Source of the DNA: Phoronis australis
Taxonomy: Eukaryota; Animalia; Phoronida
Assembly: GCA_002633005.1 (NCBI GenBank)
Contig: NMRA01000492.1
Coordinates: forward strand, 144,355-208,354
Length of the DNA stretch: 64,000 bases
Direction of reading: 5' to 3'
This document shows, in pieces, positions 8,863 to 47,330 of the stretch. The translations under genes were made by a program, and so were the position numbers. The notes beneath the pieces were generated by a model. It did no database searches. It saw only the letters and a list, made by a program, of their open reading frames with translations, and was not told the DNA's origin. The number at the start of each line of letters is the position of its first letter. Position 1 is the first letter of the stretch.

Positions 8863-9060
8863 GACAACCACGCTGCCCAGATCAACACAGCTGAGCACAG
8901 CACAGAGAATCTCCAACAGGAGTCGGAACAGCCGCCCTCGGCAACGCTAGAAAAACAGAAGAAGGCGTCGCCTAAGAAATCGCCGGCAAAATCCTCTGGC
9001 AAGATGGCCAAGGTCAAGGTACAACTCCTCGACGGTTCTGACCTCGAGGAGACCATTGAT
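8863..9060 (+). CDS. EPB41: 4.1 exon: N-terminal headpiece and start of FERM-N (..[21 protein letters not shown])
   Basis: TTCCAG acceptor, GTGAGT donor; ATG in good context (AAGATGG) at 9004. Confidence 0.9.
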
Positions 9061-12000: not shown

Positions 12001-15000
12001 AGAGACTGGCCACGCACGCAGTATATCATACCTGGTGAGGTAGACAGTATCATCTACAATGACTAGTGAACTAGACATGTTTAACACTCGTGTAATACAA
12101 GTTCCCTGTTGTTGACTCATGGTTCTCGAGAACTAGGTGAACTGAAGTTAAGATAACTGAAGAAGGAGGGCATCAAAGGCTCTGCACCTGTTACCTATCA
12201 GTTCTGCTCTTGTCTAACCATTCTTGTCTACTCTGCCAAGTTCTCCGTTACAGAATTTTCATGTTTTCTAGCCACATGACACAAGTAGTTCACGTTTCAG
12301 TATGAAGCACTGACTGGTATTTTGCCATAACATCAAAACGAAGTTACTGTCGCCGTTTGTCTTCATTTGTGATTGTTTTTGGTGTTTCGTGTTGGTTATT
12401 ACAAAATTATTAAAAAACATTTGTTAAATTTTTAATAAAACAACAAAAATGGATCACTGCAATATTCGGATACAATAGCATCCTTCGTCAACGGAAACAG
12501 AAATAAAGTAAAATCAAACACTGCATGACAAATGACATCTGATATATGGCGTAATGAGCGTAATGTAACATGTATCATTTTCATTACGCCACATATCAGA
12601 TGTCAATTGTCATATATTCTACTTTTCGACATGCAAATGTATCCTTTAGAGGATCTGGATTGCCTCTTTTAGTTTCGGATTTATTTTCTACGTTAAATTT
12701 GAAACGTTTATTCCACTAACATTAGACACAAAAATAGCAAATTGGCGAAATTTAGCTGCTATTTTTTCCCAAACTGAAATCTCGCGCGTTTGCTTACCGC
12801 TCTGTTGCGTAGAAATTTATCTCATTTAAAAATAAAAGACCTTAAGCAAAAACCTTGTCTAATGTCAGGGTCCAAACACTGCTGAGATTCAAAGGATTGC
12901 TTTTCCTATAGATTTGTTATACAATAATTTTAACAGGCTATGGGTAGGAGACCATATGGTTATGGCTTCCAGTTCACCAACCAAGGCTTGGAATTTTTCA
13001 CTTTTTAGAGGATTTACTCTTTTGGTTTCAATTTCCTCTTGATTTCAAGATTCCTCCTTTTTCATCCCTTTTTGCTATTATTTTGATTTCATTGTTGCAA
13101 AAACGTTTATTTCAGTGAAATTTTATGACGCAAAAAGTGTTTCTGTCACACAAATCTATTTGTGAAACGATACATCACCTTGAAAATTTTCCTCTTTTTT
13201 GTTTGCCATTGGTCATTCCAAACCCTGACCAACTAAGAACATGAATTTACCGTCAGGCAGCAGTGGTGTTGAGCAGAACATGACTTGTTTGGATAACCAG
13301 TCATGGTTCGAAGGCCACCTAGTCATTTGGTGTCAGAAATAGAATACTGGAATCCCTGCATTCCATTTTTTTAAATTTGCTTGACAAAAACATCACATTT
13401 ATTTAAATCTCAAATGTCATGCAAATGTTAATTTTAAAACCCAATTACCGAGCGTATGCCGCAAGCATTGAACACTAAAGTTACAAAGCAATTACTGTTT
13501 AAAAGGTAAATGAAAAAAAGCAAAGTAGGAAGGTATCTTGTCAGGGTGTAGAAACAGTCCATTGGCCAACCTTGTAAATATTCTGGCTAATCGTGTGTGA
13601 GTTGCATTCTGTTGATGTGTTGTTTTTATCTGTGGGCATGGTTTTAACAGGGTTTAAGCAGTTGTCTCAGAGGTCCAGTTGAGTGTCTTGAGTCCAGGCA
13701 CTAGATTTCACTTTGGCTTCATTGTTTACAGAGTTCAACCATTGGTTTTTGTACATCGTTTCCTCTGTATGTATTTAATTGCACTCAGTCTAGCCTAAAT
13801 TGAAATAAATTTACAAAAGTCTGTTGACATTGGTTTAGAGATCCCGTCATGTCACTGCTTCTCTACCCTGCTGTTGATGTTCGTTCTGATAATTTTAAGG
13901 TCAGCAGGAGTTGACACTCTCCAATGTGCTAGCTAGTTTTTGTTTGCCTAAGTAGTCTGGATTGAACCTCTTCAAAATCACATTATGTACATGTTGTCAG
14001 CTGTTTTAGACATAAAGGCTGCTTGATCATGCTTACCAGACAGGCTGGCCTCTGGTCATTTAAATGTTTTTTGTTCCCATGACAATTCTGCCAAATGTGG
14101 TTGTTGGGGGTGGTGAGTTACTTACCGCTTGCTGATAATTATCCCCGTATTACCTTTTGGTTGTCACGGCGATGGTATCGATAACAAGGTCACATCTCTG
14201 GTGAATTAAATATGCATGTGTTTTTTACGTTCATGTGAGATGTCTTAACTGCTCTACTTTTTGCATTCATTTTTTATTGTGACTGGAATTGCTATTACAC
14301 TGCGATAAGTGGAACGTAAGCTCCAGGTGATGTGATTAGCTAGTTCAAATGAATTTGTTGTCGTAGGATTCCTATTCAATAACCAAGTGTGAAAAACAGT
14401 TACTGGCAACCATTGTTCAAGCAAAAATCTCTAAAATTCAATATTGAAAAATTTTCAAGCTTGACTAAGGTTAAGTGTAGTGACTACCTCATGTTGATCT
14501 TAACCAATAAACAGTTGGCTACGGTGACTTGCCAGTTAGCTATAGTGACTTGTCAGTTAGCTACGGTGACTTGTCAGCTACAGTGACTTGGCAGTTTGCT
14601 ACAGTGACTTGTCAGTTAGCTACGGTGACTTGTCAGTTAGCTACGGTGACTTGTCAATTAGCTACAGTGACTTGTCAGTTAGCTACAGTGACTCGTCAGT
14701 TTGGCCAATTTATGACAAAGTCAGCTGAGTAAAAAAAATATTTTACAATCTTCAAGGGTGTGCATTATATATAGGCTGCTGTTGTTTCATCAGATGGCAC
14801 ATTTGTGGTGCTGTCTAGCTGGTGAAGTGTCTTGACCTGTTATCGATTGTCACATCCCGTTGAAAGGGCAACTATGATAAAAGGTTGTCAGGTGTCCCCA
14901 CAGCTAGGTCGCCTATAGTGGTTCGAAGGTGAAGTGGACTGTCTCCTAGATATCTGTTCTTATCGCTGACTGATAATTTTCCCTGTATGATTTCAGTACT

Positions 15001-18000
15001 GGTTGGCTAACGACAAGAAAATTAGCAAGCAATTGAGATGTGAGTATATTTTTGTTTCATTCTGCAGTTTCCTTAATTGTAGAGTGAGAACATTTGCTGT
15101 TGCAGCACAGCCAACGTATTGTTCAGTTAATGTAGAATGGAGCTGTACAGTGTGCCATGCTCGCTAGATAATGGAGCTGTACTGTGTGACAGTGTGCCAT
15201 GCTCCCTAGATAATGGAGCTGTACAGTGTGACAGTGTGCCATGCTCCCTAGATAATGGAGCTGTACAGTGTAACTGTGCCATGCTCCCTAGATAATGGAG
15301 CTGTACTGCGTGGCAGTGTGCCATGCTCCCTAGATAATCGAGCTATACAGTGTGACAGTGTGCCATGCTCCCTAGATAATGGAGCTGCATTTCCATGGCG
15401 GTTAGCTACAAAAATTTAGTGAGCTCACGAAATTGATCTCGTAGTATTCCTGTCCATGATTGGACTTTATTCCCATTGCTAACATGAAAATCGAAGTCCT
15501 CAGTGACCCAGGAAAAGGTTTCAGTGTGTATGGGAGTTCGACGACCCGAAAATTACAAAATTAGAAAATTGCACGTGCTCCTGTTGCCTGTGACTTTTAA
15601 TTGCTCGATCAGGAACAATTATAGATGAGCGGATGAGTGTGGTAATGTTTTTGAAGCCTATCTTGGAACAGTAACACCTGTAAGTTTGGTTCCTAACAGT
15701 AGATTATCAAATATAACTAACTGTTAGGAGTATTGGTTTGCTTTTGTCTACGTCACCACCAGAATCGCATTTTATTTAAACCAGCCGCGAATAACACCCA
15801 CGTGCAATGGTGTTCTCTTCAGACGTCTATTCAATCAACTGTTATCGGCCTTCTGTTGTTTGTGCTGGGATCTCGCGGTGACACAACATGATTCGAAAAA
15901 GCAACTACACCTTTCATTTGATGGGTCTACATTTATTTGTGTGATAAAACTCTCGTTTTCTTATTTTGATAAAGGCTTTGCTGGAACTGACTACCTGGTT
16001 AGCACAATACGTCTAGAATAACAAAATTTCTTTGAACTTAGGTTTTAAACCCCAAAACGCTTCAGTTAAGAATAACCTCAAAGGTTCATTCTTTAAAACA
16101 ACAACAATAACAACTATTAGGCAGTTAAACTCGACGCCAGTCATCAGTTCAAATCTCAATTTAGATACATGGTTAGGTCAGTTGATGATACGAACACCTG
16201 CACTGTGTTATCGGTTCTCTGATATTCTATTTCAAATGCCAGTGTTTTGACATGGAAATCAGAGAATTGGAGGCGACTTACCACACTGTCTGGGGATCCA
16301 CACGAGTCAATGGTCTGATCTAACTATCACAATTGACTAGATGTAAGGAGCTTGAACGCGTGCCTTAATGCTCCCCTCTTCCATTGCAGCGACCCCATGG
16401 GTATTAGCCTTCCAAGTGAAGTTCTACCCGCCAGATCCAGCCTCGTTAGTGGAGGATATCACACGCTATCAACTGTGTCTTCAAGTTAGAAAAGATGTCT
16501 TGGATGGAAAGTAAGTGATTTGTTGGTATCATTGGCCTTGTTGTCATTGAAGGTAACGAAACTGTGCCGTGCGTCTGTTATGCTTGTGTCTAGCTAATTA
16601 TAGATGGTGCTGTAGGTCCACTGTTATAACTAATTGTCACAACTACTCTGGTTTCCTGGCATGGGGCTTACTTTGTTTCCTCATTTATAAATTCCCATGT
16701 AGATAATAAAACGCCACTGATAACCATTTTCGAAACACCTCCATGTCTTGGAATTGAGTTGTGTGCCAAATTTGAGTCGTTAAGTACCGTTAGACGTTGT
16801 TGCATATGTTAGCTTTTCTGTTTGCTCTTGAATATCAGTCGTGGTTGTTATTGTGACATGTTTGTACAAGGTTCTGTAAGGTTAGACATGGTTAAGTCAT
16901 CCCGAGATTCACTTATTGGTAAGATTGAAAGGACTTGTCAAAGACATCATTGGTGGTTTGCAGTCCTATTTCTTGTCGCGTGCTGATCAGGGTAACGGTC
17001 TCGTCAGTAATATTACTGTGTGCTTTCCTGTGTTTCACTCAGCCTTCTTTATTCCTAGACTGCCATGTTCGTTCGTGACGCATGCCCTGCTGGGCTCCTA
17101 CACTGTCCAATCAGAGCTGGGCGACTATGATGTGGGGGAACACGGCATCGGCATCGGTTATATCCAAGACTTCCACTTTGCACCCAAACAGACCACCGAA
17201 CTGTTGGAAAAGATTTCAGACCTCCACAGAACCCACAAGTACGTGTACATTTGTTATTGGATGTATGGTTTATGTGCTGTAGTTAATCTTGTATTATAAT
17301 TGAATGTTTTCTTTCGTTTGAAATCTTGATTTAAACATCTTTATTTAGATTCTTTCTGAAGGTGTCTCTGGAAACCATATAGAGAAGTTTTGGAGTTTCT
17401 TGTCTTGTACGACTTTCAGTCCAGCCTGGTAGATGATGTTACCAATGTACAGTTTGTCTTTGTTACAAGTACTTTTACGTACTGATGTGTAATGGTGATT
17501 TCATCGCATTCATTATGAGCTGTTCTGCTGGGGCATATCTGTAGAGTCGCTGGCGTATCCGTGTGAATGTCCATTTAGTTTAGGTGAAATAAGTGTGCGC
17601 CTTTGTTTCCTTGCAGGGGCCAGAAGCCCAACGAGGCTGAGCTGCATTACCTGGAAAACGGCAAGAAATTGGCTATGTACGGTGTGGACATGCACCCGAC
17701 GAAGGTGAGGAGGGGGAGGTGACTATACACACTGGGGGCTGCTGCAGTAGGGATAGTCTGGATATGACTGTGGTCAAACTTTTTAGTCAATAACTTTACT
17801 TATTTTTAAATCTGAAAATATGTGTCCAGTGTTCAGGAACTTTCTAGAAACAGCACGACTCTCGATATTAAATCAAAAGTCAAAAAGTGAAGGCTAATAA
17901 AAAAAATCTGAGACATGGTTTTGGCATTGAAAGTGGGAAAGTTCAAACACGGCTTACATATGTGGACTTTCAAGACATCGTGTTCAGAAGTTAGAAGTCT

Positions 18001-21000
18001 TGCTAAAATCGTGATTTCATGTAACCAGTCGAACACCACAATTTTGTTCTCTATTTCTGTCACGAAGAAGGCTCGCTGGTCTCGACTTTTGATGTAGTAA
18101 TGTATTTAAGTTTTATTCTTTCGTTGATGTTTTCAAAACTGTAAAATTCATCAAAATAGTGAAAGTAATAAACGAATGTTGACACTATTAACTGAAGTGT
18201 GTTTTTCTTTTGCGATCAAGTGATTCACTGAAAGCCGAGTTATATCTAGATCAACAAGTCACCTACGAGTGATTCACAGTCAATGTTGATTCTGCACCAA
18301 AATGAATGGCCTGAAACTGAATAGAGATTTGATGAACTCGTTGGGCGGTTTCTAATCCAGGCAATCCCTTGACTAGGGCAAGGACTTGGCGTAGAATCAT
18401 GACAAAAAATTTCCCACACAGTTTGGCTTCTGCGTGGTATAACCAATGAAAATGCTCAAAACTAAATATTATATGCATAGCTGATTTATTCAACGCAGTG
18501 GGAGGTTGGGCTTGTACTGTGGGAAATTTCTGGCTGAAGATTTGATTTGATTGACAAACCTGGTGTTTTCCGAACAGCTTTTCAAAAGTATCAATTTTCT
18601 CTGTAAAACAAACTACCTGTGGTATCAAATAAATGTATAGGATTCTCTAACATGTTTTACTGTATGCACAACCACTGCTTTTAAAGCAGATTCACAATTT
18701 CAGTTTTTGTGATTGGTTAAGTGGTAAACTTTCTAAACATTTTCCATTTTGTTTGTTGATTTATCATTGAGTAAACTCATTGGTTGCCACTAAATGTTGG
18801 CTCCCACCAGATGTCACTCTCTTTATGGATGGTAAATTTATTCATAGTTGCATATGACGTTTGTTTCAGGACTCTGAGGGTGTCGAAATCATGATCGGTG
18901 TCTGCGCCAGCGGCCTTCTCATCTACCGTGACAAGCTGCGCATCAACCGGTTTTCGTGGCCGAAAATTCTCAAGATTTCGTACAAGCGAAACAACTTCTA
19001 CATCAAGATTAGACCTGGAGAGGTACGAAGCAAGATTCACTTTGTGACGCATAAAATTGTCTGATGCGTTGGTACATTTACACAAAAGTGTTTGAAGTAC
19101 CATTTGTGTTGGAAGCTTTGATAGAAAGAGAGGTTAATTATAATTTGAGTAGGAACTGTATCGAGATAATTTGTATAAGCGATTGTGCAAATGTGGCAAA
19201 GAGCAGATGCTGTTATATATTAAGCAATTCATTATCTTTGTAGCTAATTAGTCATTGCATTGCTAATTAGTCATGTTAAGCTAGTTGACACTTCTAGTTT
19301 TCCTGGATTGTAGTCTGGCTGGGGTACCTAATTGTACGCATTCTTTTGTTTGCAAAACTGTCTCGAAGTCGTTTTAACTCTGTTCGAAGTCTTAATTAAT
19401 CTGCGCAAGCCTGAATTATCTGGTCCAAGTGATTTCGTCTAAGGAGGAATTTGGCTTCTTTTAAAAAAAGCCGAGTGAAGGAATTATATCAACAAAGGAG
19501 AAAATCTTAGCTTGGGATCATTGAAAAACCAACTTTCATTTGTGCACACCCAACTTAGGTGACTTCGACTGCTGCGAGTTATATAACGTATATGATGTGT
19601 GTTAAGTGTCTGTTGCGTAGGTGTATATCTTCTGGTGTCTGGTTTCAGTTTGAGCAATTCGAGAGCACCATTGCCTTCAAGTGCCCTAACCACAAACAAG
19701 CAAAGAGACTGTGGAAGACAGCAGTGGAGCATCATACTTTCTTTAGGTGGGTGCTGCCACCTGGTGTGCCGTTCATGTAAAGTGTGTAAAGCTGCTTAAT
19801 GGTGCAATAAACTGGTTCTCACTCAAGACGAAGCTCATTGAGCAGATTGTCGGGGAAGGGAGGTTAGCTTCTTCAGTAGAAGCAATATGGCCAACACTGA
19901 ATTCCAGGCACCTTTTTGTAATCAACTTCAGTTCAAACAAAGGACAAGTACGTGATTATATTACTTTTAAAGGGCAAAGGCACCTTTGAGAAAGTTTGAT
20001 ATTGGCGACAAAACATGGTTTATGGAGGTTTTAATTGTGAAATCAGAATTAAGATTAACCCTGTCAGACTGGACGTGAAATTCCCTTGCCATAATAGTTT
20101 CTGTTTTCAAAATTCAACCAAAATTAGGACCTGGGATTGCTTTAAAGCACTCTTATTTCGGGAGCGCTGGCCAACCTTTCATTTTCTCAACTGTTCTTTT
20201 CTTCCGTTAATACTTTGGATGCTTTCCCTGGAATTCAAAGTAAAATTCTGTTCTGATTTTTGGACGGTTGATCAAGAGAAAATGCGAGCATAAGCTCTGA
20301 ATAATTTTAATTACGATACATGCCTCAATTATATGTTGTTCGGTGTTGTTGCTGGACTTGGTGGTGTTCCCTGTTACAGAATGAAAGAGCCGGAAGTGCC
20401 CAAGAAGACCGGACTCTTCCCGGGCTTCGGCTCGCGCTACCGGTACTCCGGCCGAACCCAGCACCAGACGCAACAGTCGGTCATTGACAGGGACGCACCC
20501 ACAGTGAAACGGGGCGGGCCAACTCACAGCAGTATGGACGGTACGTAGATATTAATGTCATAATTGTTAACATTAATAACTGGTTGTTGATTTTACGAGT
20601 CTTTGATTGTTAACAATGTATTGTAGTATTGTCAGGAATATGTTTTTCTCAGATGTCTTACGGAACTAATGTCGGACGAATCTGTTCTGTAGGAAAAAGA
20701 GAAATCAGCTTGGTGAATACCGGTTTACGTTTCAAAAACTCTTGTATAAGGACTGTGACCAGTTACGCATTTGCAAGACGTTGCTGACTTAGAAGTTAAT
20801 TTTATTCAACTCTGTCTACAGTAGCAGCTGTCTCCAAAGTGATGCTGAAAAGTGTCTGACCAAACTGAATTATCGTTATTAGTGTTGTTTTTCTACACGA
20901 ACATTTTGATTCCCTGACGAGGTTGTTGCATCGTGAACTGTTGTGGCATGTACAAAGCTGTACAACTGTCCCCTGTTCGACACGGAAACTGCTACTTTCT

Positions 21001-33000: not shown

Positions 33001-36000
33001 AAGTATAAAAATTGGGTCTCTTCCTTTGGAACCCAATCACACCAAGCTTGTTCTCAGTGCCATACAAAAACGGGGGGAAAGAAAAAGGCGGAAACCAATT
33101 CAATTTCATCCAGTCTGAGTAAGAACTCAGTTGTCTGTCCCCTGTTTACGCCTTTCCCTTCCCGTTTAATTAACGTGTTGAGAAGGGTTCCAACGATCTG
33201 AGAACGAGTTTGTTGCTAGAGGGTCTTTATAAGTAACATATTAACTCACACATGAGAAATCTTTTAAGAACTTGGTCTCATCTGTCAGCTCACTCACCTT
33301 TAGTTCCAGTAGATTTTTAACATCATCACGTTTCCACATCACTATAGCAACTGCCGTCATCCACTCCTGATTTCCATATGCACTTTTTAGTCTCTTAGTG
33401 TGTTGTGGCTGTTGTGGAAGAATATCGAAGGAGCCATTCTTCAGCAAGTTTGTCGTAGATTTGATTTAGAATTTCTTGGTGTTGTACCGTTGTTGTACCA
33501 ATTATGCCTTGTAACATAGAGACAAAGTACCTGAGTCGAAGACTACATGGGTTTTGTCTCAACGAGGCACCAATAGGTGTGCAGGATGAGGTTTTTCACA
33601 CCTCTTGGAAGTCTCACCGTGCACATCGTGGAGTTGACGTTTCAAATTGGCGTCTGATAAGCCTTGTGCAAGCATTTCGCTGCAGGAGAGTATTACCAGC
33701 TAAGATGCTAACTGAAAGTTGAATGGTTATGTTCGCTAGCTTGCTACATGCCCATCTGAACTCAGCTGGCAAGAAACTGAGGAATTCAACAGCGCGGAGG
33801 TGTAGAAATCAGTTGAAAGCATCATTGACATCACCAACACTGTTTACATTGTATCATAATATTAAACTCCTCTTCGCGTATTTTTCCACAGTGATTATAA
33901 GAGGAGTTGTAGTATTGATTAGTTTATTTGCCTATATCTTCAAATGTACCGCCAGATCTCTAGCGGAATAAACTCATTATGGAAGAGTGGAAAACAAGTT
34001 GAAATGAACTTCTGGAAAACTTGTGTGATCAGTTGCAAGGCTTGGAATTTTCCGCGGAAACGCGGATTTCCGCTTTTTTCAAATGTTCTGTCTGCGTATT
34101 TTATTATATTTCCGCGTTAAAAAAATCGGATTTGATATAAAATTTCCGCGGCAAATTCCTTTCTTGCCGCGGCGTTGCCGACGACTTTCACCTCGAAAAG
34201 CGGAAGTTGCTCTTTATGTTTCGGGGCATCTGGGATAGCGTGGTGGATTTTTCAATGGCCTGGTGCGATTGTAAACCGCGGTGACAAATACTACGACTCT
34301 GCAGCCAAAAATGTGCGGAGGTGGGAGTGGACAAGCCAGCTAAAAAGAAGCAGACGCTCGCTTCCAGAGGTGGTACCGTTTTGTTTTTTTTTTCAGTCCT
34401 CGCGTTTTTTTTTTTTGTCGGCAAGGTGTCCACATGGGCCATATCGAGGCCGGGAAGCGTGCATGTTTTGGGCCGTAAAAGTTTCCACGTATTTCGTCAT
34501 TGGTCATTCCAAGCCCTGCAGTTGTTAACTAAAAAACAGCACGTGCTGGAAGTGCATGCGGAAGAAACACAGTATTGGTAGCACTGTCCAGTTTGTGGTG
34601 CTGTTCATTTGGTAAGATAAATGTAGCCATTTGATTCACTGGTGTTCAGCGGATTTATTTGCTCATACAACATGCAGGTCAAACTTGAATATCCACAAAT
34701 TTTGTTTTGGGACAGAAGACCCTTCTTAGAGACACAGATGGGTGCTTTATACATGCACACTTGCAATTGCTTGCTGCGTCATTCCTGAAGATATGGTGCC
34801 ACTACTGCTATGAGACCTGTCGAAAGCTCCTTCCGTGAAGGGTGCTGGCATAGACGTGAGAAGTATGAGTACTTGTGCTTCCTAATGCTTTAGGTTGTCT
34901 GGTGCAAGTCTGGTCTTTCATTCAGTGGTGTCATCGAATGGAGATTTCCGTTGAAGGTCACAGCTGCGTCGGGAGGTCATGTCATATTCGGTGTAGATGT
35001 TGTTTCTTGAGCAGTGGGTGCTGAATGGGTCTTACATTTGCCTAGCACCATGCCTAGTGTTGGCTCAACTGATCACAGACAGTCGGATTTTGAGGTTCTG
35101 GGTTTCTGACCCTCATTAGAATAGTAGTCTGTTCTCACTCGGGTCATTCATCTCAAAGTATGCAACATGTAGGTGAGCATTCCCAAACATATTTGCACTC
35201 AAATGCACAGACATATTTCATCATTATTGACTGATACACAAGTCTTTTTGCATGCCCAAGTGCCACAAAGGTTTGGCAATGGTAAAGTCAGAATTAAGGT
35301 GCATGCCAAAACATGGAGTCGTCGGAGTGGGGGGGAAGGACTAGCGAATCTCAGGTGTGTTGTCTTTCAGCGGACTACTGTGCAATCGACTGCCACAGAA
35401 AAGTCCACCAAATACACCAGCGAAGTGCCATTGGTCAAAACCCAGAAGAGGGTTATAAATGTGGAGGTTGACCCTAACGGGACGACACGAGTTGAAAAGG
35501 AAATCACCATCACCGGCAATAGTCAAGACATTGACTATGATGAAGTGAGTATTTATCTGTTCAGTTTTCTGCTGTCCGCTTGTCCGTGTTGCATTCATAT
35601 GAAGCCCAGATTCAGCTTCGGCTTAAAAAAGTCATAGAGCGGTTATATGTGGCAAATATTTTTTAATACATCAAGTTAGCCTTCCTACTTTCACCTGATA
35701 ACACTGTGGACTTGTTGAAGTTCAGTGACAGCTGCAAGCTTGTTGTGGCTTTAAGAAAAATGCATAATACAAAGTATCGTCTGAAGAGGGATTGTTTGGT
35801 AAGAGTGTGATTGAGGTTTGTGAAGCGCGGCCTGTTTGCTCTAAGAGTTACTTGTCGGTCACTTTGAAGTATCACCTCTCTCACGTATAACGTTGACAGC
35901 ACAATGCCTCCAGTAGCTATAAAGTTTTATGCAACCCAGCTATGGCCTATGCTTAAATGAGCTTGTGATCACAGTAATGTTAGTCATCAAATCTATCAAT

Positions 36001-39000
36001 TTTAATTGTGACTTGCATCTCGTGGATTGTTGGGCATAAGCATCTGAGAAGAGGAAAGTTAAGCCTAAGTTGTTCTAATCCACTTGTCATTTCCTACCAG
36101 GCATTGGCAGCTGCCATTCGTGAGGTGACAGACATGGATCCAGATCTCTCTGTAGACAAAATAGAAATCAAGACAAGCTAATCAACTCAGGTGAGGGTGT
36201 GTTTAGATGCTTTGCTCGCTTGACCTACTGTTTGTTAATTGTGTGAGGTTTTATAACAGCCACGTATTGGTTGCAGATGCCCTGAAAAAGCATGTGCGAT
36301 AAAGTTGGTGGTTAGCCCACTTCACTGTTCACTCCTAGATCAGTATAGAGCTCTGTGCTTGCTGCGTAATGGAAGTGTTAGCAAATTACAATATTTCAGC
36401 ATTTTTTACCCACACCTCTGCAGTACTATTCCGTAGTTAAAATCGTGCCTTTTTCATTTCAGTCACTCTCTCAACACCGCCTGCCTGAGTGTTACCGTGG
36501 TTGCACATTGCGGTGGAAAACTCGCTGTATATGTCTTTCTATTTGGTGTGGATTGCTGCTATCGTCGCCGCTTATCGTTGTCACCTGGATTGTAAAAAAT
36601 GGTGCAACTATGTTGCCAGCATATGAAGGACTTTTATTGACGTATTTTAGCCAACATCTGACCTTCAGCTTCCATAGTCGTGTTATGTGATGAAAACTTG
36701 TCATGCTAGCCTGTGTCATTTTGATAATGTTTTAGTACTCATCAATAAATATTTGTACGACATACTATTTTTATGTAGAAGCATTGAGCACCAGAGTATT
36801 GTGAGTATTGTATTTCGTAGATGCATTAAGTTGTAAACAAAAGAGTATAGATGTTTGTTTCTCTCAATGGTTAAAAGCTTTTCCCTAGGTGCGTGTATGT
36901 GCGGCTGAAATCGTTGACGTTCAACTTGCACTTGTGCTCTGATAAGTAAACATTTTAAATACTGGGAAATTTTTTGTATATGAATCAAGACTGCTCTGTG
37001 TTGCCTTGACAATGTGGAAGTGTGTGAGGACTGCCCACTGTTTGTGTCATTTTAGCTGTATGATAGATAGATTGATAGATAGATAGAAAGATATGCTCAT
37101 GTGCTGAATTTGTAAGTTTTAACATTTTGTCATGTGCTACTGTAATTTTTAGTACATATGTTGTTTTGAAAATGGTGGTATGGCTTTTACTAATAATAGT
37201 AATAGTTTGTGATAAACATGTTCTGAAAAGATTTTATTTTTTCATTTTTGCCTCACACAATCACAGTTCTACCTTTCACATTTATTTCTTTGTGTCTTTA
37301 AACGTACTAAGGAAATTAAGTTGATTACAAGAGAGAAAAGGTAAACAAAAGGGTGTTTTCTGTGCTAGTGTTATGATGTGCAAACTGTTAGGAAGTGTTT
37401 CTGTGCTGTTGTGCCTACCATGACTTAATGTTACTATGTGTATCTGCTTTATGGTGGAATGCTTAATAAACTACTTCATTTTAAAGTTACCTTGTTTTCG
37501 TGCACATTATTGCGAATAGTACAAACCCCTCTGGTGTTGCTCGTTTCACCTCTTCTATTTCTACATGTAGCAAATGTGTTGGTCTTGGAGTAGTCGGAAC
37601 AGCATGATTAGAACGGCCTTGGATTGCTCCCGCTGTGCCTCCATCGGGTTTCTTTTCTGTCTGCCCGTCATTGTGTCCATCCTTCAGTTCATGTTATTGC
37701 GTAGACAGGTCTTGTGCAGGTAGTGTTCGACTTGCATCGTCCAATTTGCATGTTGTTGGATTGTTGAACAGCCACTTTTGTGGTGATTCCGCTTGTCTTT
37801 GTTGAGCTGTTTTCTGTCTTGTGTTTGCGAGTAGTCCTCGAGTTTTGGTAACATGTGCATGGTACACTCACAACAGCTGTTTTGTGTTTCTTATTTTCAC
37901 TATCTATCCATTTCGTGTTTTGCTTTCTGGTGCATGTTTGATGCATTTTGTGTGTTTTTGAGCCAATTATTTTTTGGCAAAAAGATCATTGCTACACACT
38001 CACAAGAATATCACTGCTACACACTCTGAACAAGAATATAAACACTCAACAAGAATATCACTGCTACACACACTGAACAAGAATATAAACACTCAACAAG
38101 AATATCACTGCTACACACACTGAACAAGAATATAAACACTCAACAAGAATATCACTGCTACACACACTGAACAAGAATATAAACACTCAACAAGAATATC
38201 ACTGCTACACACACTGAACAGGAATATAAACACTCAACAAGAATATCACTGCTACACACACTGAACAGGAATATAAACACTCAACAAGAATATCACTGCT
38301 ACAAGCACTCAACAACAATATCCCTTTGACAGACGCTCGACTAGAATATCCCTGCGACATACTCTACAAGAATTTCAATGCCAGGCGCTCAACAAGAATA
38401 TCACTGTTGCAGACACTAGTCTACAATATCACTGTAGCAAACGCTCAACAAGAATGTCATTGCTAGAGATTGTCGACAAGAAAAACAGGACCACGGGCAC
38501 TACATAAAAACGCCACAGACACTACAAGAATGTCAATGTTACAATGATTCAACAAGAATATCCCTACATGACCATTTCAGCAATGTTGGTTGTGTGTGCA
38601 TGGAGTTGGACGTATTAGCACTTGTATGTTTGCTCTGTTCTCTCAAATGAGTGACTAAGACCCTCGCAATATTTTATGGAATGGGGCCTCTGCTTTGGAA
38701 ACTAGCAACGTTTTGACCCATTTCTATCCATCTATTATTCTGTCAATTTTGAGATGAGTTCATAATGTAGAGGTATGTTTCCTAAACTTTTCTGGGCTTT
38801 TGTGGACTGTTGCTTGAACAAAACTTGACGTCATTTTGATTTGAGTAAGTGAGCTTCCTTTTGGTGTGGGTTCTGTGCAAAAGGTCCACTTGAAGGTTGC
38901 TGTGTACAACTACAAAAAGAACCTGCGGACAAGTGTCGTCTGGAGGATGTAAATTTGCTAGGGGCCCACAGGGGTGTGGTTGTCAGAAGTAGGTGACTTC

Positions 39001-42000
39001 TATCAATCATAGGCCTAAGCTTCTTATTTATCAAACGTTTCGCTTGTGAATGGAGTAAACAGACACTCTGATGCTAGTTTAGGTTTGTTTTTGTTGTTTG
39101 GGCTTGGGCTTGATCGTGGTGTTTGTCAAGATGCCTTCTATGTTTTTGTCAGCCAACACACCTAGTGCTGTTGTCAACAACTGACCACAAAATAATGCAT
39201 GTCTGTGACCCATACTGATATCATCTTGTCACGTGTCGCCATATTTCTTAGCAAGTGCGATGGTGTGTTGTGTACCTTGTTCTGGATATGAAGCGTCATT
39301 AAAAAAGTGGAACAATATTCCACCGGTTTCCAAATGATGCAAGAGTGCTTAGGCAGTGGTTAGCATCCTAACTAAAAATAGCAATGATCAGGATATCTGG
39401 AGTGGGGTAACCAGTTGTGCACATAGTGTTGCCAGCAAGAATTCCGTCAATCAATTGAAAACAAATGCCGTTTTAGGTAGAGAATTCCTTGAAGCCTTGT
39501 GCTTTGCATGCAAAAGATTTGCGTGAACTGCAGTTATAGAAGTAACAATTTTGATAATGTGCAGCCACTGCATTTCAAATATGCTGACTACGATAATGAA
39601 AAAACATTTAGATCTAAGATACTTTGACAACCAAATTGGAGACTTGATGTTCACTAGGTGGTGCTAATGAAGATACGGACCTCTTTTTTATCGTCTGAAT
39701 TGAGCGAGGACAGAGACCTATGGAATCCACCATGAGACATGATTATGCACCTATAGCTACCGTGCATGCTTTTCAGCTAAGACCGCTGTTCTATTATCAC
39801 CACTTATAAATTCCGAGCTCGTGAAAAAGTTGTTTTGCTAATTATTTTAGACTTTATTGTTAGTGCACTCCATCTTTTTAACAAAAGTATGACAGGAACA
39901 TTATGTGCACTTTGATGGCAAATGTCTGCACATGCTTGGCAAGACTGTTGATGCATGACATAGCGTTAATTGCATAGCAGTTCACTCTTTGGTATGCAGG
40001 TTCCTTTTCCTATTGAGCCATTTCATAGGAAAAAACGCTATCAGCGTTTATCAGATGGCCGAGGCTGACCTGTAGTTTAGATGTGTATGTAATTGAAAAA
40101 GCGATAAGTAATTGATTATGTTTGTCAATATTTTGTGTTTGCCTGTTCTATAATATGGAGATAGCTAAATAATGTGATTTGCTGCGGAAATCCGCTTCGA
40201 CGTGATGTAATATATCATGTGAAAAGAATCCTACTTTGATACCCCAACCAGTCGAGATTGGGCGAGTCGACGGGTTTGCGCACCTCAGAATCTGCCAATT
40301 TAGATCAAAGACATCATGCTGTTGTAGTTAATTAAATCGCCTCTCTAGATAATGATGCCCATCATAAAAACATTGGGGGTAACAATAGTGTTTTTAAATT
40401 TTCATTTTGAAAGTTTGTAAATAGCATATTTGAATAGTTCATGAAAAGCACTCGCAATAAGGTTTTTGAAGTTGTGTCACGGTACAATTATTGGCATGAG
40501 TTCCGCGGTCAAGACCCTGCTGAGACATAGACCTTCTCAAACTTGCAATTTCAGTTAACAGCGTACGGCCAACAAACGATGTGTCAAAGATAATGGTTGC
40601 TTTTTGCTGCTCCAAGTTTGAGATGTTTTTCAAACGCACCGTGTCTCACGATTTTTTGCTCATTCTAGCCCCCAACTGTGCAGACAACTCCTGTAACCTA
40701 TGACCCGGACTCAGAGAACTCCTCCAAGTACACTCGTGATGTGCCGCTAGTGAAGACCAAGAAACACACTGTCAGTTACGAAGCAGAGGGCGCTGAAGAG
40801 CCACAAGATGGGGACCTGGTGACGTCACAGTCGCATTCTAGTCGGTCACAGACTATAGAAACAACCACAGTGTGTGAAGCTTCAACTGAACTTCTCCTAG
40901 ACACGTTTGCATATTAGTTATACGCTGTATAGCAACGTTGATTTCTCACTTTCTGCTACTGTTGACCATTGCACTTGGCATTATATAGCAACTGAACTTG
41001 TGAAACTTTGGTTAAACTCATTTGGGAAATTGTAATGCCCTCTGGTGGCTTTTTAAAGCTTCAGTACCTAATTGCGTTACAGGAAGCTGGATACAAGCTG
41101 TTACATCTCACTATTGCGTGTCGTATTCACATTGAAATGGTCTGTCAACGATCAGATTGATTTGTAACTGTAAATTGTATGCAAACCAGCTTAGACGGAC
41201 AGTTGCGGTTTTGGTAGTGTAATTCACCTTGACGTAATGTGCTTTTGACTGTCTAATGAACATCGATTACGGTGAGGCATGAAAAAGTTTATTGTTGAAT
41301 GCATTTTGCTGTCTCTCTGCATGCATCAACAGTAGTCTTCGTTGAGGTTTTGGCATGTGTTTGATGCCTGTTTGTTTCGTTTTCAGTATACTACAGAAAA
41401 AGATGGCATGATTGAAACTCGTGTGGAGAGGAAAATCACAATCACTGGTGATGGGGAGGACATAGACCACGATGCAGTAAGTTGGACTCATAATTGTTTG
41501 TTAACTTTTGATTCGGACCACACACCGCTATAAAATTGGTCTCAACTGGTTCCTTGACAAGTGATTTCTGGTTTCTTACAGTTTGTTTGTTATTTCCTGA
41601 GATTATGTTTGTCGCAAAACATAATACGCCGTGTCAAGAGGACTTGCAGAGCCTGTTCTTGAGAAATAACGAATTGTCAGTTCCTTCAAATCCCTGATAT
41701 CAACCTCGGTTAGACTAAGGATTAATTTGAAACTAATTTCAGGATAGGTGGCCAAATTCAAAACCTTTTTTTGTCGTGGAAAGCCAGTTTGTAGACAGTT
41801 TCAGTGTTTTTTTTGCATAAAAGTAACGCCCAAAAAGTTTTTCTATTTTTCTAAAACCTTCTACCTTGATACAAGTATTTTGTAAAGTAATTTGACAGTG
41901 GTACAGTACAAGCCATGCTTGAAATAGTGTTTTCTTCATCTAATGCTGAGAAATTTAAACACAATTAAATTCTCCACCTGTTGGCCATGTGAGATTGTGC

Positions 42001-42738
42001 CTAATGGGTTTGTTCTAAAGCATACTGGATCGTAGAATCATAGCTAAAAAACAGTTGACTAGATTCTCCTTTTGGAAGAAAGCAAATACAGCATAGCTGC
42101 TGATCATGTTATTGAGCACCCATTCTTCCGCATTACACGGCTTTGTTTTACCACCTGGTGCGCCCTCTAGGGCCGGAAGGTGGAAACTAGGAGCCCACCC
42201 CTCATCTAATGGCATGAATGGCTGCAAGTTATTTAGTTTGTAACCACTAAGTATAAAGAAGTCAGTGTTTGTCTGCCTTATTAGTAAGTAGGTTTAATTA
42301 TAGTTCGCCAGAGACCATTTCTGGCGTCATTTGATGCAACAAAGCTAAAAAATTCATTTAGTACTGACTTAGTGCTTCAACTTGAACACAGTTTTGAAAA
42401 GTCGTAAGAAATGAAATTAAACAAATGAAAATTGTCCATTTTGTTGCTTGGTTATATAAAGGTATTTTTGTAATGATGTCTGGACTTTTCTTGTACCCCA
42501 AGGATTTTGGAGGCTGGGTCCAGAGCAGCTCACTGTTTGGAAGTGGGGGCAAAACACTGGTTTGTATTTCCGAAAGGAAACTGCGGTCGCCTATTTCCAT
42601 TTTGCACAAATGTATTGGTATCGTGTTTTCTCGTTTCACCAGGCCTTGGCTGAAGCCATACGACAGGTGACAGATATGAATCCTAACCTGGCCGTCGAAA
42701 AAATAGAAATCAAGACTGAGACGGAGGAAGTTAATTAA
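8863..42738 (+). CDS. EPB41: Protein 4.1 / coracle-like gene (FERM + FA + variable middle + 4.1 CTD), multi-exon, two alternative 3' ends
   Basis: Exons 8863-9060, 10643-10744, 14997-15039, 16390-16510, 17059-17238, 17617-17704, 18870-19022, 19649-19746, 20380-20540, (21533-21601), 23423-23517, 25580-25807, 26062-26235, 27272-27850, 28297-28452, 30767-30859, 32432-32527, then either 35371-35544+36101-36181 or 40669-40869+41387-41476+42643-42738. All AG/GT bounded with compatible phases. Hallmark 4.1 motifs: [86 protein letters not shown]. Confidence 0.95.
10643..10744 (+). CDS. EPB41: 4.1 exon FERM-N ([34 protein letters not shown])
   Basis: TTGCAG/GTGAGT boundaries; classic VC.HLNL.EKDYF motif. 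Confidence 0.95.
12525..12613. repeat. Inverted repeat (33-bp arms, 23-bp loop)
   Basis: ATGACAAATGACATCTGATATATGGCGTAATGA (12525-12557) matches the reverse complement of 12581-12613 at 31/33. Confidence 0.85.
12982..13227. mobile_element. Non-autonomous DNA transposon (MITE), hAT-like termini, 6-bp TSD
   Basis: Ends CAAGGCTTGGAAT...GGTCATTCCAAACCCTG; flanked by ACCAAC on both sides; same termini as the element at 34036-34518. Confidence 0.75.
14512..14704. repeat. 21-bp minisatellite (CAGTTAGCTACGGTGACTTGT), about 9 copies
   Basis: Direct inspection; explains the QLATVTC-repeat ORFs. Confidence 0.95.
14997..15039 (+). CDS. EPB41: 4.1 exon FERM-N ([14 protein letters not shown]), 43 nt
   Basis: TTTCAG/GTGAGT; WL...K.I.KQ motif; absent from the ORF track. 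Confidence 0.92.
15136..15387. repeat. 42-bp minisatellite (AGTGTGCCATGCTCCCTAGATAATGGAGCTGTACAGTGTGAC), about 6 copies
   Basis: Direct inspection. Confidence 0.95.
16390..16510 (+). CDS. EPB41: 4.1 exon FERM-N/M ([40 protein letters not shown])
   Basis: TTGCAG/GTAAGT; [15 protein letters not shown] motif. Confidence 0.96.
17059..17238 (+). CDS. EPB41: 4.1 exon FERM-M ([24 protein letters not shown]...LHRTHK)
   Basis: TTCCTAG/GTACGT; phase 2-2. Confidence 0.96.
17617..17704 (+). CDS. EPB41: 4.1 exon FERM-M ([29 protein letters not shown])
   Basis: TTGCAG/GTGAGG; MYGVD.H motif. Confidence 0.96.
18870..19022 (+). CDS. EPB41: 4.1 exon FERM-C ([51 protein letters not shown])
   Basis: TTTCAG/GTACGA; closely matches the 4.1/coracle FERM-C as I recall it. 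Confidence 0.97.
19649..19746 (+). CDS. EPB41: 4.1 exon end of FERM-C ([33 protein letters not shown])
   Basis: TTTCAG/GTGGGT. Confidence 0.96.
20380..20540 (+). CDS. EPB41: 4.1 exon FERM-adjacent (FA) domain (..[18 protein letters not shown]..)
   Basis: TTACAG/GTACGT; GS.[FY]RYSGRT motif. Confidence 0.95.
21533..21601 (+). CDS. EPB41: Putative 69-nt alternative cassette exon ([24 protein letters not shown])
   Basis: TTTACAG acceptor, phase 1-1 symmetric, open in the required frame, weak donor AG|GTTGTT. Confidence 0.5.
23423..23517 (+). CDS. EPB41: 4.1 middle exon ([32 protein letters not shown])
   Basis: TTGTAG/GTTAGT; GC-rich; converts phase 1 to phase 0 as the gene model requires. Confidence 0.85.
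25580..25807 (+). CDS. EPB41: 4.1 middle exon ([42 protein letters not shown]...SPLQ)
   Basis: CTAAC branch point + CTCAG acceptor, CAG|GTTTCT donor, 228 nt open, coding-like GC. Confidence 0.75.
26062..26235 (+). CDS. EPB41: 4.1 middle exon ([58 protein letters not shown])
   Basis: TTCCTCAG/GTGGAT; 174 nt, phase 0-0. Confidence 0.75.
27272..27850 (+). CDS. EPB41: 4.1 middle exon encoding a 15-aa Trp/LxPEER tandem-repeat module
   Basis: Long pyrimidine tract + TTGTAG acceptor, GAC|GTGAGT donor, 579 nt open, phase 0-0, strong GC3 codon bias. Confidence 0.88.
28297..28452 (+). CDS. EPB41: 4.1 middle exon ([52 protein letters not shown])
   Basis: TTACAG/GTGAGT; 156 nt, phase 0-0. Confidence 0.85.
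30218..30537. mobile_element. Kolobok-type non-autonomous element containing a tRNA-like segment
   Basis: TTAA|AGGGACATTGTCGG ... CCGAGAATGTCCCT|TTAG (13/14 TIR match, one TSD mismatch). Confidence 0.65.
30767..30859 (+). CDS. EPB41: 4.1 middle exon ([31 protein letters not shown])
   Basis: TTTCAG acceptor; GAA|GTATTC donor (moderate); 93 nt, phase 0-0. Confidence 0.65.
32432..32527 (+). CDS. EPB41: 4.1 middle exon ([32 protein letters not shown])
   Basis: TTGCAG/GTGAGT; 96 nt, phase 0-0. Confidence 0.85.
34036..34518. mobile_element. Non-autonomous DNA transposon (MITE), hAT-like termini, 6-bp TSD
   Basis: CAAGGCTTGGAAT...GGTCATTCCAAGCCCTG flanked by CAGTTG on both sides; CpG-rich interior with TCCGCG subterminal repeats. 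Confidence 0.8.
35371..35544 (+). CDS. EPB41: 4.1 CTD cassette A, exon 1 ([41 protein letters not shown])
   Basis: TTTCAG/GTGAGT; paralogous to 40669-40869 + 41387-41476. Confidence 0.9.
36101..36181 (+). CDS. EPB41: 4.1 CTD cassette A, stop exon ([26 protein letters not shown])
   Basis: TACCAG acceptor; TAA 36179-36181; donor CAG|GTGAGG after 36190. Confidence 0.9.
   Translation, partial: ALAAAIREVTDMDPDLSVDKIEIKTS
36463..37490 (+). other. 3'UTR terminal exon of isoform A, poly(A) signal AATAAA at 37465-37470 (also 36744-36749)
   Basis: TTTTCATTTCAG acceptor; homology to the isoform B UTR exon at both ends; exact 3' end approximate. Confidence 0.75.
37061..37092. repeat. GATA microsatellite (imperfect)
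   Basis: GATAGATAGATATTGATAGATAGATAGAAAGAT. Confidence 0.7.
38003..38565. repeat. 47-bp minisatellite (CAAGAATATCACTGCTACACACACTGAACAAGAATATAAACACTCAA), ~6 near-perfect copies followed by degenerate ~28-bp units
   Basis: Direct inspection. Confidence 0.92.
40669..40869 (+). CDS. EPB41: 4.1 CTD cassette B, exon 1 ([38 protein letters not shown]...SQTIETTT)
   Basis: TTCTAG/GTGTGT; VP.V.T....YE and G.L..SQ motifs of the 4.1 CTD. Confidence 0.92.
41387..41476 (+). CDS. EPB41: 4.1 CTD cassette B, exon 2 ([30 protein letters not shown])
   Basis: TTTCAG/GTAAGT; canonical ETR.E..I.ITGD..DIDHD motif. Confidence 0.95.
42643..42738 (+). CDS. EPB41: 4.1 CTD cassette B, stop exon ([31 protein letters not shown])
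   Basis: CACCAG acceptor; TAA 42736-42738; donor AAG|GTAATT after 42750. Confidence 0.93.
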   Translation, partial: ALAEAIRQVTDMNPNLAVEKIEIKTETEEVN

Positions 42739-43473
42739 ATTAACGACAAGGTAATTAGCCTTTTTAGGTTGAGGTTAGACGCGGAACTGCTGGCAGTGTA
42801 GTACTGGTGTTTATTATACCCAGTGGCACTTGCTTCTGCTGAACATCGAGAGGGGAAACCATCAGCTTTTGGTGTTAACTTCAGCAAAAGATTAAAAATC
42901 TGACTTGCAGTTCTTTTGACCATTAGCAATAACATAGGTGTGCAAAATTTCATGCGAATTGACCCATTGATGTTTGGAACTGCTAAAAGCAATGTTGGTG
43001 AGAAGACTTCAAAATGACTGATAAAGATTTGCCACGAAATTGAAATCTATTGACCTTGTCCCAATCAATGTTTGGCACACAAATATGTTATGAGTAGCAA
43101 TAAACATGAAGATAGATTTTCAGGATTTGTGAATATTGCATTTTGGGGGAAAATTCCACGAAGGTTGACAATTACCTGAAATCAATTTCAACTTCTTAGT
43201 TGGCCAGTTTCAGGCCTTTTGATTTTTGAAGCTTTGCCATTTTAGATGGTGACTTGTCTGCTGAAGAGGATTTGGAAAATATGATTTGCACTTGAAGAGT
43301 AATTTGACAAGTACAATGTTTACTTGTTTTTAAAACAGTTGATGGGAAGCACTGAATACCAATGGTTTTAAATGTGAAATATACATTGAGTTTTTGCTAA
43401 GCCTTGGAACTGAGGCCACCGTGGCATGAAGACATGCCATCACGGTAATAATTTTTTTCTTTTAATCTTTCAG

Positions 43474-45200
43474 TCTGTCATCCTTGCTTGGTTGTCTGTT
43501 ACCATGGTTACGCATCGCTGACCAGTCATTCGCTGTTTGTGTCCTTATATTTTGGTGTGGATTGCAACTGCCGCTTAGCGAAATCTTGTCGACTGATTGT
43601 AAAGCAGATTGTATGAAATGTTACTAATATATAGTGGTTGTATCAAATTTGCACGGCTCTAGGTGTTTTAGCTAAGATTACCATGTAGGTGACGCGCTCG
43701 TGTTTACTTATAGATTACACTGTCTCCGTGTCACTTTGGTCGGACTTATTTTGTACATGTTCGTACTAGTAAGATTTTTTATTTTGTATCCAGTCTGTTT
43801 TTATGCATTTAACTTTGTTAGGTGAGGTTGCCAGTACAGTGCTGTTTTGAACATAGTGGGTTACACGCGTTCAGGTTTGTGACTAGATTTGGCTATCTTT
43901 GCTTCTGCTGTTGTTCCGTTTGGTTTGAAATGGTTGATCTTTATGGAAGCCACATTCGGCGCATTCTTGAAAGTTCTCCATTACCATATGAGTTTATATG
44001 TCTAGTCCTCCTTGAGTGTCGACATTTTCAAAAGCACATACTTTAGAATGTTTTGGCATTCCTTCATTCTCCTGCATAATGCGACTGATTTTCAACGTCA
44101 TTTTCAGAATATTTTGAAAACATACCTTGCTAGAAACCCATCATATGTTTTGTACTGTCAAAAACTGTGAAAGATCCCTTGGCATTTCTGTAAATTCACT
44201 GATAATGCAGTCAGTTTCTTCGAAGAAATTTGATTTATTCTGACTGGACATGGTTGCATGTGGCTTTTAGCATTTTGCATCAACTGATTCAACCATTGTG
44301 TTCTGAGTGACAGATTCTAAGTCTGTCTCAAAAACGATCTTGGTGACTGGAAGGTGCTGGGTAACGTGTATGCCCACGTGTAAACCAAAAATTCCGTCAC
44401 AGTTTCACTGCTAATAAAGTGACTTAGCTGATTTGTTGGTTCTGTGAGCAAGTAGGTTAGGCCAGGAAGCGGGAGATATTTTATTTAATTTCATTTCAGT
44501 TTTATACGAAGTGTTGAAATGTGGGCTTGAAGCCAACCGTTGTTTTAGCTAATCGGTGGACCGGGTGTGGAAATGGTTGTATGTCAAGAATGTTTTTAAA
44601 TACTGTGAATTTTGTATTGTCATACAGTTCGAAATCGTTTGAAGAAAGGCAATCGTTTGTTCTTGAGCAGCTCAAATTCGTATGTATTATCTGAAAGGTA
44701 GCGTAGAACTTTCTGTATTCTGTCTCCTATGTCTTGATTCATTCTTTAGTAAACCTGCCACACGACGTGGTCTTTCAGCTGGTGCTGACATCTTGTGGTA
44801 ACGATGAACAAGCCTAGTACCATGGCTGTCTGTTTCTACTTAGATTGTGACATGATGAAGCATCATCGCCTGTAAAACGAAGTATAATGAAAAAAATACT
44901 CTGAAATTCCAGCCTCTCTGATATCCACCCACTTTCACTAAATGATAAATGTGCCATGACCTTTGATAATATTGTGAAATGGTGTCAGTAATGGTGGCTT
45001 AAGGCATTAATTTATATTGGTCTATGTGTATGGAATATATTATTGTATGTCTGTACTGCTGTGAGTATTGTTTTTTATGTGGCTAGGTGTGACCTTTAAC
45101 CTCTTTAGGTAGGTGGACGCCTGCCGCACTCAACCATTTATTACCATGCATAGAAGCTTATATCAGTGGACTGCTTAATAAACTAATTCGTTTTAATATG
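43474..45200 (+). other. 3'UTR terminal exon of isoform B, poly(A) signal AATAAA at 45177-45182
   Basis: TTTAATCTTTCAG acceptor; GT-rich tract downstream of AATAAA; homology to the isoform A UTR; exact 3' end approximate. Confidence 0.75.
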
Positions 45201-47016: not shown

Positions 47017-47330
47017 TTAACCGTGTTCGGTAGTGGCTTGGCCTCGTCGAACTCTGAACAGCACAAGCATTCCATTGAGGTAGGCATAACAACGCACACA
47101 GTGCATTTGCACCAAGATGTGTCACCACGTTTGTCCTCAGTAGCCGCCTCGTTTCTGTCAACAGCTGCCTGTGCCTGTGCCTGTGCGTACTCTGCCTCGT
47201 TCTACTCGGGCTCAAACATGTACCCACCCACTGAATGTCCGTGAAAAAATTCTTCGTCACCTCTGCCGTGAACAAGGTCTCCGTCACTCACACTACTGTT
47301 ACTGCGATACGGGTCACCGAGTCCAGCAAT
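47013..47330 (-). pseudogene. KolX accessory-protein remnant (P2X7 ballast / nanor-like Cys-rich motif)
   Basis: Hand translation: ..GGYMFEPE*NEAEYAQAQAQAAVDRNEAATEDKRGDTSWCKCTVCVVMPTSMECLCCSEF; in-frame stop at 47202-47204; possible ATG>ATT at 47328-47330; not in the ORF track. Confidence 0.8.

What the first reader, a model, noticed from the sequence alone, without database searches (positions are those of the whole stretch)
35371..45200. Tandem duplication of the whole 3' end gives two mutually exclusive 4.1 C-terminal domains
Seen: cassette A (35371-35544, 36101-36190, UTR 36463-~37490) and cassette B (40669-40869, 41387-41476, 42643-42750, UTR 43474-~45200). Each starts at phase 0 and has its own stop, post-stop intron, UTR exon and AATAAA. 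Paralogy: [94 protein letters not shown]. Both frames are intact despite heavy divergence. Known: the 4.1 CTD binds NuMA, glutamate receptor subunits (GluA1; GluRIIA for Coracle) and IP3R, and is normally single-copy per gene. Inference: one invertebrate gene switches CTD partner specificity by alternative last-exon choice, paralleling what vertebrates achieved with four paralogs.
Basis: partly seen in the sequence, partly recalled or inferred. Interest (0 to 1): 0.82.

Follow-up and report, generated by a model that had tools for sequence, protein, structure and literature searches.

The report
Two swappable tails on protein 4.1
An invertebrate gene for the membrane-skeleton adaptor protein 4.1 carries two old, duplicated endings, and RNA reads show it splices on one or the other, so one gene makes two versions of the partner-binding tail, which likely differ in binding strength and messenger regulation more than in the kind of partner they grip.

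Summary
The coordinates, phases, stops and post-stop introns of both cassettes are correct. RNA reads join the same donor (32527) to cassette A (114/119/212 reads in three raw-read runs of one study) or to cassette B (43/26/50). A contig set from a second study holds both forms, and no A-to-B hybrid joint is listed. Paralogy extends into the 3' UTR start and the poly(A) signal, so the whole 3' end was duplicated. Synonymous sites are saturated while the protein is conserved. B is the canonical lophotrochozoan C-terminal domain (CTD). A, the major form (about 75-80%), is derived: it evolves faster and has lost a 33-residue Ser/Thr-rich stretch plus one intron, which resembles vertebrate exon-19-skipped isoforms. 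Both keep the hydrophobic positions of the 4.1G target-binding core and differ at charged positions and in the acidic tail. Core identity is 69%, like 4.1N versus 4.1B. A partner switch is therefore possible but untested; tuning of affinity and UTR control is more likely. No second case was found among 226 homologs. The architecture (tandem 3' terminal cassettes) is a known kind; ten literature searches found no report of it in protein 4.1.

The parts
8863..20540 (+). Nine shared exons: U1, FERM and FERM-adjacent region of protein 4.1 (boundaries chosen by eye)
   Evidence: Open 381-codon frame; FERM-FA 72-76% identical to annelid and brachiopod 4.1; homologs carry PF09379/PF00373/PF09380/PF08736
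32432..32527 (+). Last shared exon; its donor (32527) is joined to either cassette
   Evidence: Joints and loose ends
35371..35544 (+). Cassette A exon 1 (58 codons): the 5' part of a B1-like exon fused to the 3' part of a B2-like exon; includes the beta1 strand of the binding core
36101..36190 (+). Cassette A exon 2: helix and beta2 of the core, stop 36179-36181, post-stop donor
   Evidence: PF05902 E=0.016, below the cutoff on its own
36463..37485 (+). Cassette A 3' UTR exon; AATAAA at 37465; poly(A) after 37485
   Evidence: Joint 36190>36463 and poly(A) loose end
40669..40869 (+). Cassette B exon 1 (67 codons), including the Ser/Thr-rich stretch missing from A
41387..41476 (+). Cassette B exon 2 (beta1 of the core)
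   Evidence: PF05902 25.1 bits, cutoff 25; joints
42643..42750 (+). Cassette B exon 3: helix, beta2, acidic tail, stop 42736-42738, post-stop donor
43474..45197 (+). Cassette B 3' UTR exon; AATAAA at 45177; end position inferred
   Evidence: Joint 42750>43474 and read depth; likeness to A's poly(A) region
36490..36596 (+). UTR-start element of A, paralogous to 43497-43603 in B
   Evidence: blastn 70% over 114 columns, E 2e-6; no stable fold

Best explanation
The gene is a protein 4.1/Coracle gene, likely of a lophotrochozoan, whose 3' end (CTD exons, post-stop intron, UTR and poly(A) signal) was duplicated in tandem long ago, and each mRNA takes one cassette from donor 32527, likely giving two CTDs that bind the same class of partner with different affinity and carry different 3' UTRs. 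Shown: shared donor, both cassettes spliced, A the major form, duplication reaching the poly(A) signal, protein conserved in both. Inferred for the choice: the nearer cassette A wins about 75-80% of the time because its acceptor and poly(A) site come first, and B needs read-through of A's poly(A) site with all of A removed as intron. Inferred for evolution: B kept the ancestral form; A lost 33 residues and an intron and diverged faster. Inferred for function: both tails fold on a partner's beta-strand as 4.1G does on NuMA. A lacks the Ser/Thr-rich spacer and the acidic tail and changes two charges (4.1G positions 951 and 957), which would tune affinity or phospho-regulation.
For: Splicing. Paralogy into UTR and poly(A) site. 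pS 0.79 versus pN 0.14 over 58 aligned codons, with no bootstrap of 2000 at pS-pN <= 0. The three read-versus-genome differences shown inside the coding exons are all synonymous. B matches Haliotis, Capitella, Ridgeia and Lingula over its whole length at 56-61%. A has an end branch of 1.28 against 0.17 for B, and A+B are sisters in the best core tree at support 70/70. The core matches PDB 8I8Y (E 4e-10), and the key hydrophobic positions are the same in A and B (PMC10523638 parts 1-4). Vertebrate exons 20-21 suffice for NuMA binding and exon 19 is dispensable (PMC2148212 passages).
Against: No binding or localisation data. The pN figure comes only from the stretches that align, so it understates A's divergence. 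The A+B clade is not well supported, and a tree with A held among vertebrates is not rejected (p-AU 0.27). Hybrid joints below the listing threshold (3 reads; share setting 10; 14 joints not shown) are not excluded, and short reads do not show full-length molecules. The three raw runs are from one study of unknown tissue.
Confidence: 0.6

Rival explanations
1. Partner switch: CTD-A and CTD-B bind different membrane or cortical proteins, and cell types choose between them.
For: Core identity of 69% equals that of 4.1N versus 4.1B (70%); a review passage credits such a difference with a switch between AMPA and NMDA receptor partners (PMC8473747). A shows a charge reversal at position 957 and loses E951 and E996, which are kept in the 4.1G, 4.1N, 4.1B and 4.1R rows. 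A's long branch fits new function.
Against: The hydrophobic core is identical, and electrostatics are secondary in 4.1G-NuMA. The 4.1G CTD is itself a broad binder (7 of 38 tested regions). No clear ratio shift among three samples.
Confidence: 0.25
2. The two proteins are functionally interchangeable, and the duplicate is kept for its different 3' UTR (1.0 versus 1.7 kb) or by simple subfunctionalisation of expression.
For: Core residues are unchanged and net charge is similar (-7 versus -8). UTR-start and poly(A) elements are conserved between the copies despite saturated synonymous sites, which points to selection on UTR elements.
Against: A has lost 44 residues overall and diverged asymmetrically, more than equivalence would predict.
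Confidence: 0.13
3. One cassette is a decaying relic, B is a separate transcription unit, or the repeat is an assembly artefact.
For: No A-type ortholog was found in any search.
Against: Both cassettes are spliced to the same upstream exon in four data sets from two studies. The copies are only 67-76% identical in DNA within the aligned codons, so they are not alleles. Both frames are under purifying selection.
Confidence: 0.02

Closest known systems
Tandem 3' terminal cassette clusters: Drosophila PGRP-LC (LCx/LCy/LCa), CG42235, Pip (PMC6191721, passages)
   Same: Multi-exon 3' cassettes from tandem duplication, spliced to a common exon, each with its own C-terminal domain and UTR. [quoted passage not shown]
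   Different: Here there are two cassettes and one donor, and no competing RNA pairing above shuffles in five region pairs. The copies are unequal, one being internally deleted.
Vertebrate 4.1R/4.1G isoforms lacking exon 19 (P0166, P0174, P0333; also carp P0357)
   Same: The same domain outcome as CTD-A: the 'VP-L/I-V' motif sits close to the core (25 residues; A has 20) instead of 50-79.
   Different: Vertebrates skip a cassette exon and keep an identical core. Here the segment lies inside exon B1, and the short form is a separate, diverged genomic copy.
Lophotrochozoan single-CTD protein 4.1 (Capitella, Ridgeia, Lingula, Haliotis, Sinanodonta) and amphioxus BjP4.1 (PMC3791450, part 1 and passages)
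   Same: FERM-FA-U2/3-CTD layout; CTD-B is collinear with their CTD.
   Different: One CTD core per gene in the records seen. Short forms drop the whole B1-like segment (Sinanodonta P0106/P0107 versus P0112/P0114/P0119; P0005 versus Capitella P0008).
4.1G CTD-NuMA complex (PDB 8I8Y; PMC10523638)
   Same: The beta1-alpha1-beta2 core (4.1G 953-996) is present in both cassettes.
   Different: No partner is known in this animal; A ends at the position of 4.1G residue 996 and has no acidic tail.

Membership tests
Protein 4.1 / Coracle | N-terminal FERM plus FERM-adjacent region | tested here: met
   Open frame, 72-76% identical to annelid and brachiopod 4.1 over about 300 aa; FERM tree places it loosely with annelid and nemertean rows, 85/84, not starred
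Protein 4.1 / Coracle | 4.1 C-terminal domain (PF05902) | tested here: met
   B2 reaches the cutoff (25.1/25). A2 and B3 hit below the cutoff as single exons; A1 and B1 do not hit. Whole A and B match 4.1 CTDs by blastp; a profile of the A exons plus one homolog stretch hits PDB 8I8Y
Protein 4.1 / Coracle | One CTD per gene | tested here: not met
   Two paralogous CTD cassettes, and no third in the window by tblastn
Protein 4.1 / Coracle | CTD binds partner peptides (NuMA, receptors) | not testable with these tools
   No partner sequence from this animal was at hand; only residue conservation was checked
Tandem 3' terminal cassette cluster (PGRP-LC type) | Paralogous cassettes joined to a common upstream exon | tested here: met
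Tandem 3' terminal cassette cluster (PGRP-LC type) | Each cassette has its own stop, UTR and poly(A) site | tested here: met
   Stops and UTR joints are shown for both; poly(A) is shown for A and inferred for B
Tandem 3' terminal cassette cluster (PGRP-LC type) | Mutually exclusive use | tested here: met
   0 of the 8 joints listed link A to B; short reads and a listing threshold apply
Tandem 3' terminal cassette cluster (PGRP-LC type) | Competing RNA pairings steer the choice (only some members, per PMC6191721) | tested here: inconclusive
   0 of 5 region pairs beat the best of 20 dinucleotide shuffles; only parts of the introns were scanned and no relatives were available for covariation

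The most novel reading that the evidence does not exclude
One invertebrate protein 4.1 gene encodes two CTDs with different partners. The derived, shortened CTD-A has taken over as the main form and re-creates, by duplication and deletion, the exon-19-less CTD of vertebrates, while cell types switch to the ancestral CTD-B to anchor a different set of receptors or spindle proteins.
Probability: 0.25. Interest if true: 0.65.

Novelty: new member of a known kind. Interest (0 to 1): 0.45.

Why it matters
The 4.1 CTD is a disordered hub domain, and what sets its partner preference is poorly understood. Two expressed CTDs in one gene, with the same hydrophobic core and different charges, spacer and tail, form a natural matched pair for testing what the periphery contributes. 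The convergent loss of the exon-19-like Ser/Thr segment suggests that this spacer matters. The impact is limited because the architecture is common in animals and the duplication was seen in only this species.

Tried and rejected
No whole genome is held for this window, so paralogs elsewhere and relatives' loci could not be read. Searches for an A-type ortholog found none. Exon B1 alone gave 1 hit among 22 candidates. The profile of A's exons plus one homolog stretch gave 128 hits in the word-indexed search (120 listed) and 406 among 50%-identity representatives (150 listed), with no hit standing out. Exon A1 found no relative in JGI metagenome contigs and no usable Atlas hit. Of 360 proteins then held, 330 had a CTD core and 2 had two core hits; on inspection one repeats only the last exon and one is split by a retained intron. 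Of 49 distinct rows with the VP motif (2 were parsing failures), 5 had a spacing under 30: four vertebrate and one unnamed record, P0034; none had 20. Of 226 proteins with both FERM and core, 136 fell into 26 groups with at least 97% FERM identity, and none held two paralogous cores (lowest core identity 0.89). These databases collapse isoforms at 90% or 50% identity, so an alternative CTD could be hidden. Tubulanus P0073 has a divergent CTD of another shape and was among 8 of 45 rows left out of the core tree by the motif filter; Xylocopa dropped out. Long-range RNA pairing: none above shuffles. UTR-start elements fold no better than shuffles (z +0.8 and +1.7). A bacterial promoter scan was irrelevant. 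No structure or complex was predicted because no partner was at hand and the spliced CTDs could not be submitted. Ten literature searches showed no report of duplicated alternative CTDs in protein 4.1. Most were seen as listings only, subscription papers are missing, and no supplements were read. A paper on unusual zebrafish cardiac 4.1R isoforms was seen only as a reference title and may bear on novelty.

Full report
The observation. Both cassettes are as described. Exons 35371-35544 and 36101-36190 (A) and 40669-40869, 41387-41476 and 42643-42750 (B) have AG/GT ends and lengths divisible by three, and they read open to stops at 36179 and 42736. The stops lie 9 and 12 nt upstream of a donor; by the established 50-nt rule (own knowledge) neither post-stop intron should trigger decay. 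AATAAA signals are at 37465 and 45177.

The gene. Nine upstream exons chosen by eye (8863-20540) give an open 381-codon frame. Its FERM-FA region is 72-76% identical to annelid and brachiopod protein 4.1. A FERM tree of 30 rows puts it loosely with Capitella, Tubulanus and unnamed rows (85/84, not starred). The animal is probably a lophotrochozoan; I cannot place it further.

Splicing. Three raw RNA-seq runs of one study and one contig set of another were laid on the locus. Donor 32527 is joined to 35371 in 114/119/212 reads and to 40669 in 43/26/50 reads, and the contigs hold both forms. Every internal and post-stop intron of both cassettes is spliced, and a contig carries poly(A) after 37485. 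On 34740-43700 the joint table lists 8 rows: five cassette introns and three non-GT-AG rows, none linking A to B. Rare hybrids under the listing threshold are not excluded, and 14 joints were not shown. Loose ends before both acceptors are the same upstream exon (agreement 0.97-1.0). B is therefore not a separate transcription unit. Its share is 0.27/0.18/0.19 at the shared donor (chi-square p=0.07) and 0.22-0.26 averaged over all joints, so these samples show no switch.

The duplication. Besides the coding matches, blastn finds paralogy at the start of the two UTR exons (36490-36596 and 43497-43603, 70% over 114 columns) and around the poly(A) signals (28 of 31). The unit therefore ran from the first CTD acceptor to the poly(A) site. 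Over 58 alignable codons pS is 0.79 and pN 0.14, so the event is old and both frames have been kept; the estimate leaves out the parts that do not align. The three read-versus-genome differences shown in coding exons are synonymous.

The copies are unequal. B (128 aa) is collinear with the CTDs of Haliotis, Capitella, Ridgeia and Lingula at 56-61%. A (84 aa) fuses the first half of a B1-like exon to most of a B2-like exon. It has lost 33 residues, including the Ser/Thr-rich run, and one intron, and it stops before the acidic tail. In a 37-row tree of the 59-column core, A's end branch is 1.28 against 0.17 for B. The two are sisters at 70/70, which is neither shown nor rejected. The major isoform is thus the derived one. 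The distance from the VP motif to the core is 20 in A, 53 in B and 50-79 in most homologs. The closest short spacings are 25 in vertebrate 4.1 isoforms that lack the exon-19 segment and 27 in one unnamed record. Other lophotrochozoans shorten the CTD by dropping the whole B1-like segment.

Distribution. No A-type ortholog and no other gene with two paralogous cores appeared; Lingula, with 17 isoform records, has one core. Clustering of the databases limits this test, and no close relative is represented (best FERM identity 76-77%). Lineage restriction is likely but not shown.

Function. PMC10523638 (parts 1-4 read) shows that the 4.1G CTD folds as beta1-alpha1-beta2 (953-996) around a partner strand; hydrophobic packing dominates and electrostatics are secondary. 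PMC2148212 (passages) maps NuMA binding to exons 20-21. A profile of A's exons plus one homolog stretch hits PDB 8I8Y. With 4.1G numbering (last residue taken as 1005 from recall; the residues named in the paper match), A and B agree at 954, 958-960, 972, 975, 976, 979, 988 and 991-994. They differ at 951 (T/E), 957 (E/K), 985 (D/N) and 996 (S/E), and in the tail. Core identity is 69%, against 70% for fish 4.1N versus 4.1B. A review passage credits a difference of that size with a receptor switch (PMC8473747). I put about 0.6 on same-class partners with tuned affinity plus UTR differences, 0.25 on a true partner switch and 0.13 on interchangeable proteins.

Mechanism of choice. No long-range pairing beat shuffles in five region pairs, and the UTR elements do not fold well. 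The simplest model, inferred, is competition in which the proximal cassette usually wins, and B requires bypass of A's acceptor and poly(A) site.

Novelty. [quoted passage not shown] Unchecked notes from this scan list other alternative-ending arrays in the same genome; I treat them as leads only. Ten searches found no report for protein 4.1. PMC3791450 describes invertebrate 4.1 genes as single-copy with the layout U1-FERM-FA-U2/3-CTD. Verdict: real and expressed, a new member of a known kind, of moderate interest (0.45).

Noticed in passing
window 27272-27850 (+): A well-included exon in the U2/3 region of the same gene (joints) encodes about ten 15-residue tryptophan repeats. Pfam DUF3106 matches at E 1.5e-11; there is no match to it among 121 homologs and no usable Atlas hit. 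It is an unexplained insert in a protein 4.1.
   Followed up: partly
window 30767-30859 (+): A cassette exon upstream of the shared donor exon is included or skipped: 28452>30767 in 37/71/120 reads versus 28452>32432 in 38/25/33. Its inclusion varies among samples more than the A:B choice does.
   Followed up: no
window 45975-47673: A THAP-domain ORF (46210-46860, PF05485 E 4e-15) lies between 176-nt inverted repeats, 93% complementary; likely a DNA transposon remnant.
   Followed up: partly
window 49696-50097 (-): An open frame with one hydrophobic segment and a weak ISK/KCNE-channel Pfam hit (E 0.022, below cutoff).
   Followed up: no
window 34039-34518: A repeat in the intron before cassette A draws many reads with loose ends from elsewhere; likely a common dispersed element.
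   Followed up: no
window 37996-38465: A 47-bp tandem array (7 copies, 97% matches) and decayed 28-bp units lie between the cassettes.
   Followed up: no
protein P0073 (Tubulanus polymorphus): A 4.1-like protein with a strongly divergent CTD that lacks a recognisable beta1 motif; its locus would be worth checking for a second CTD cassette.
   Followed up: no
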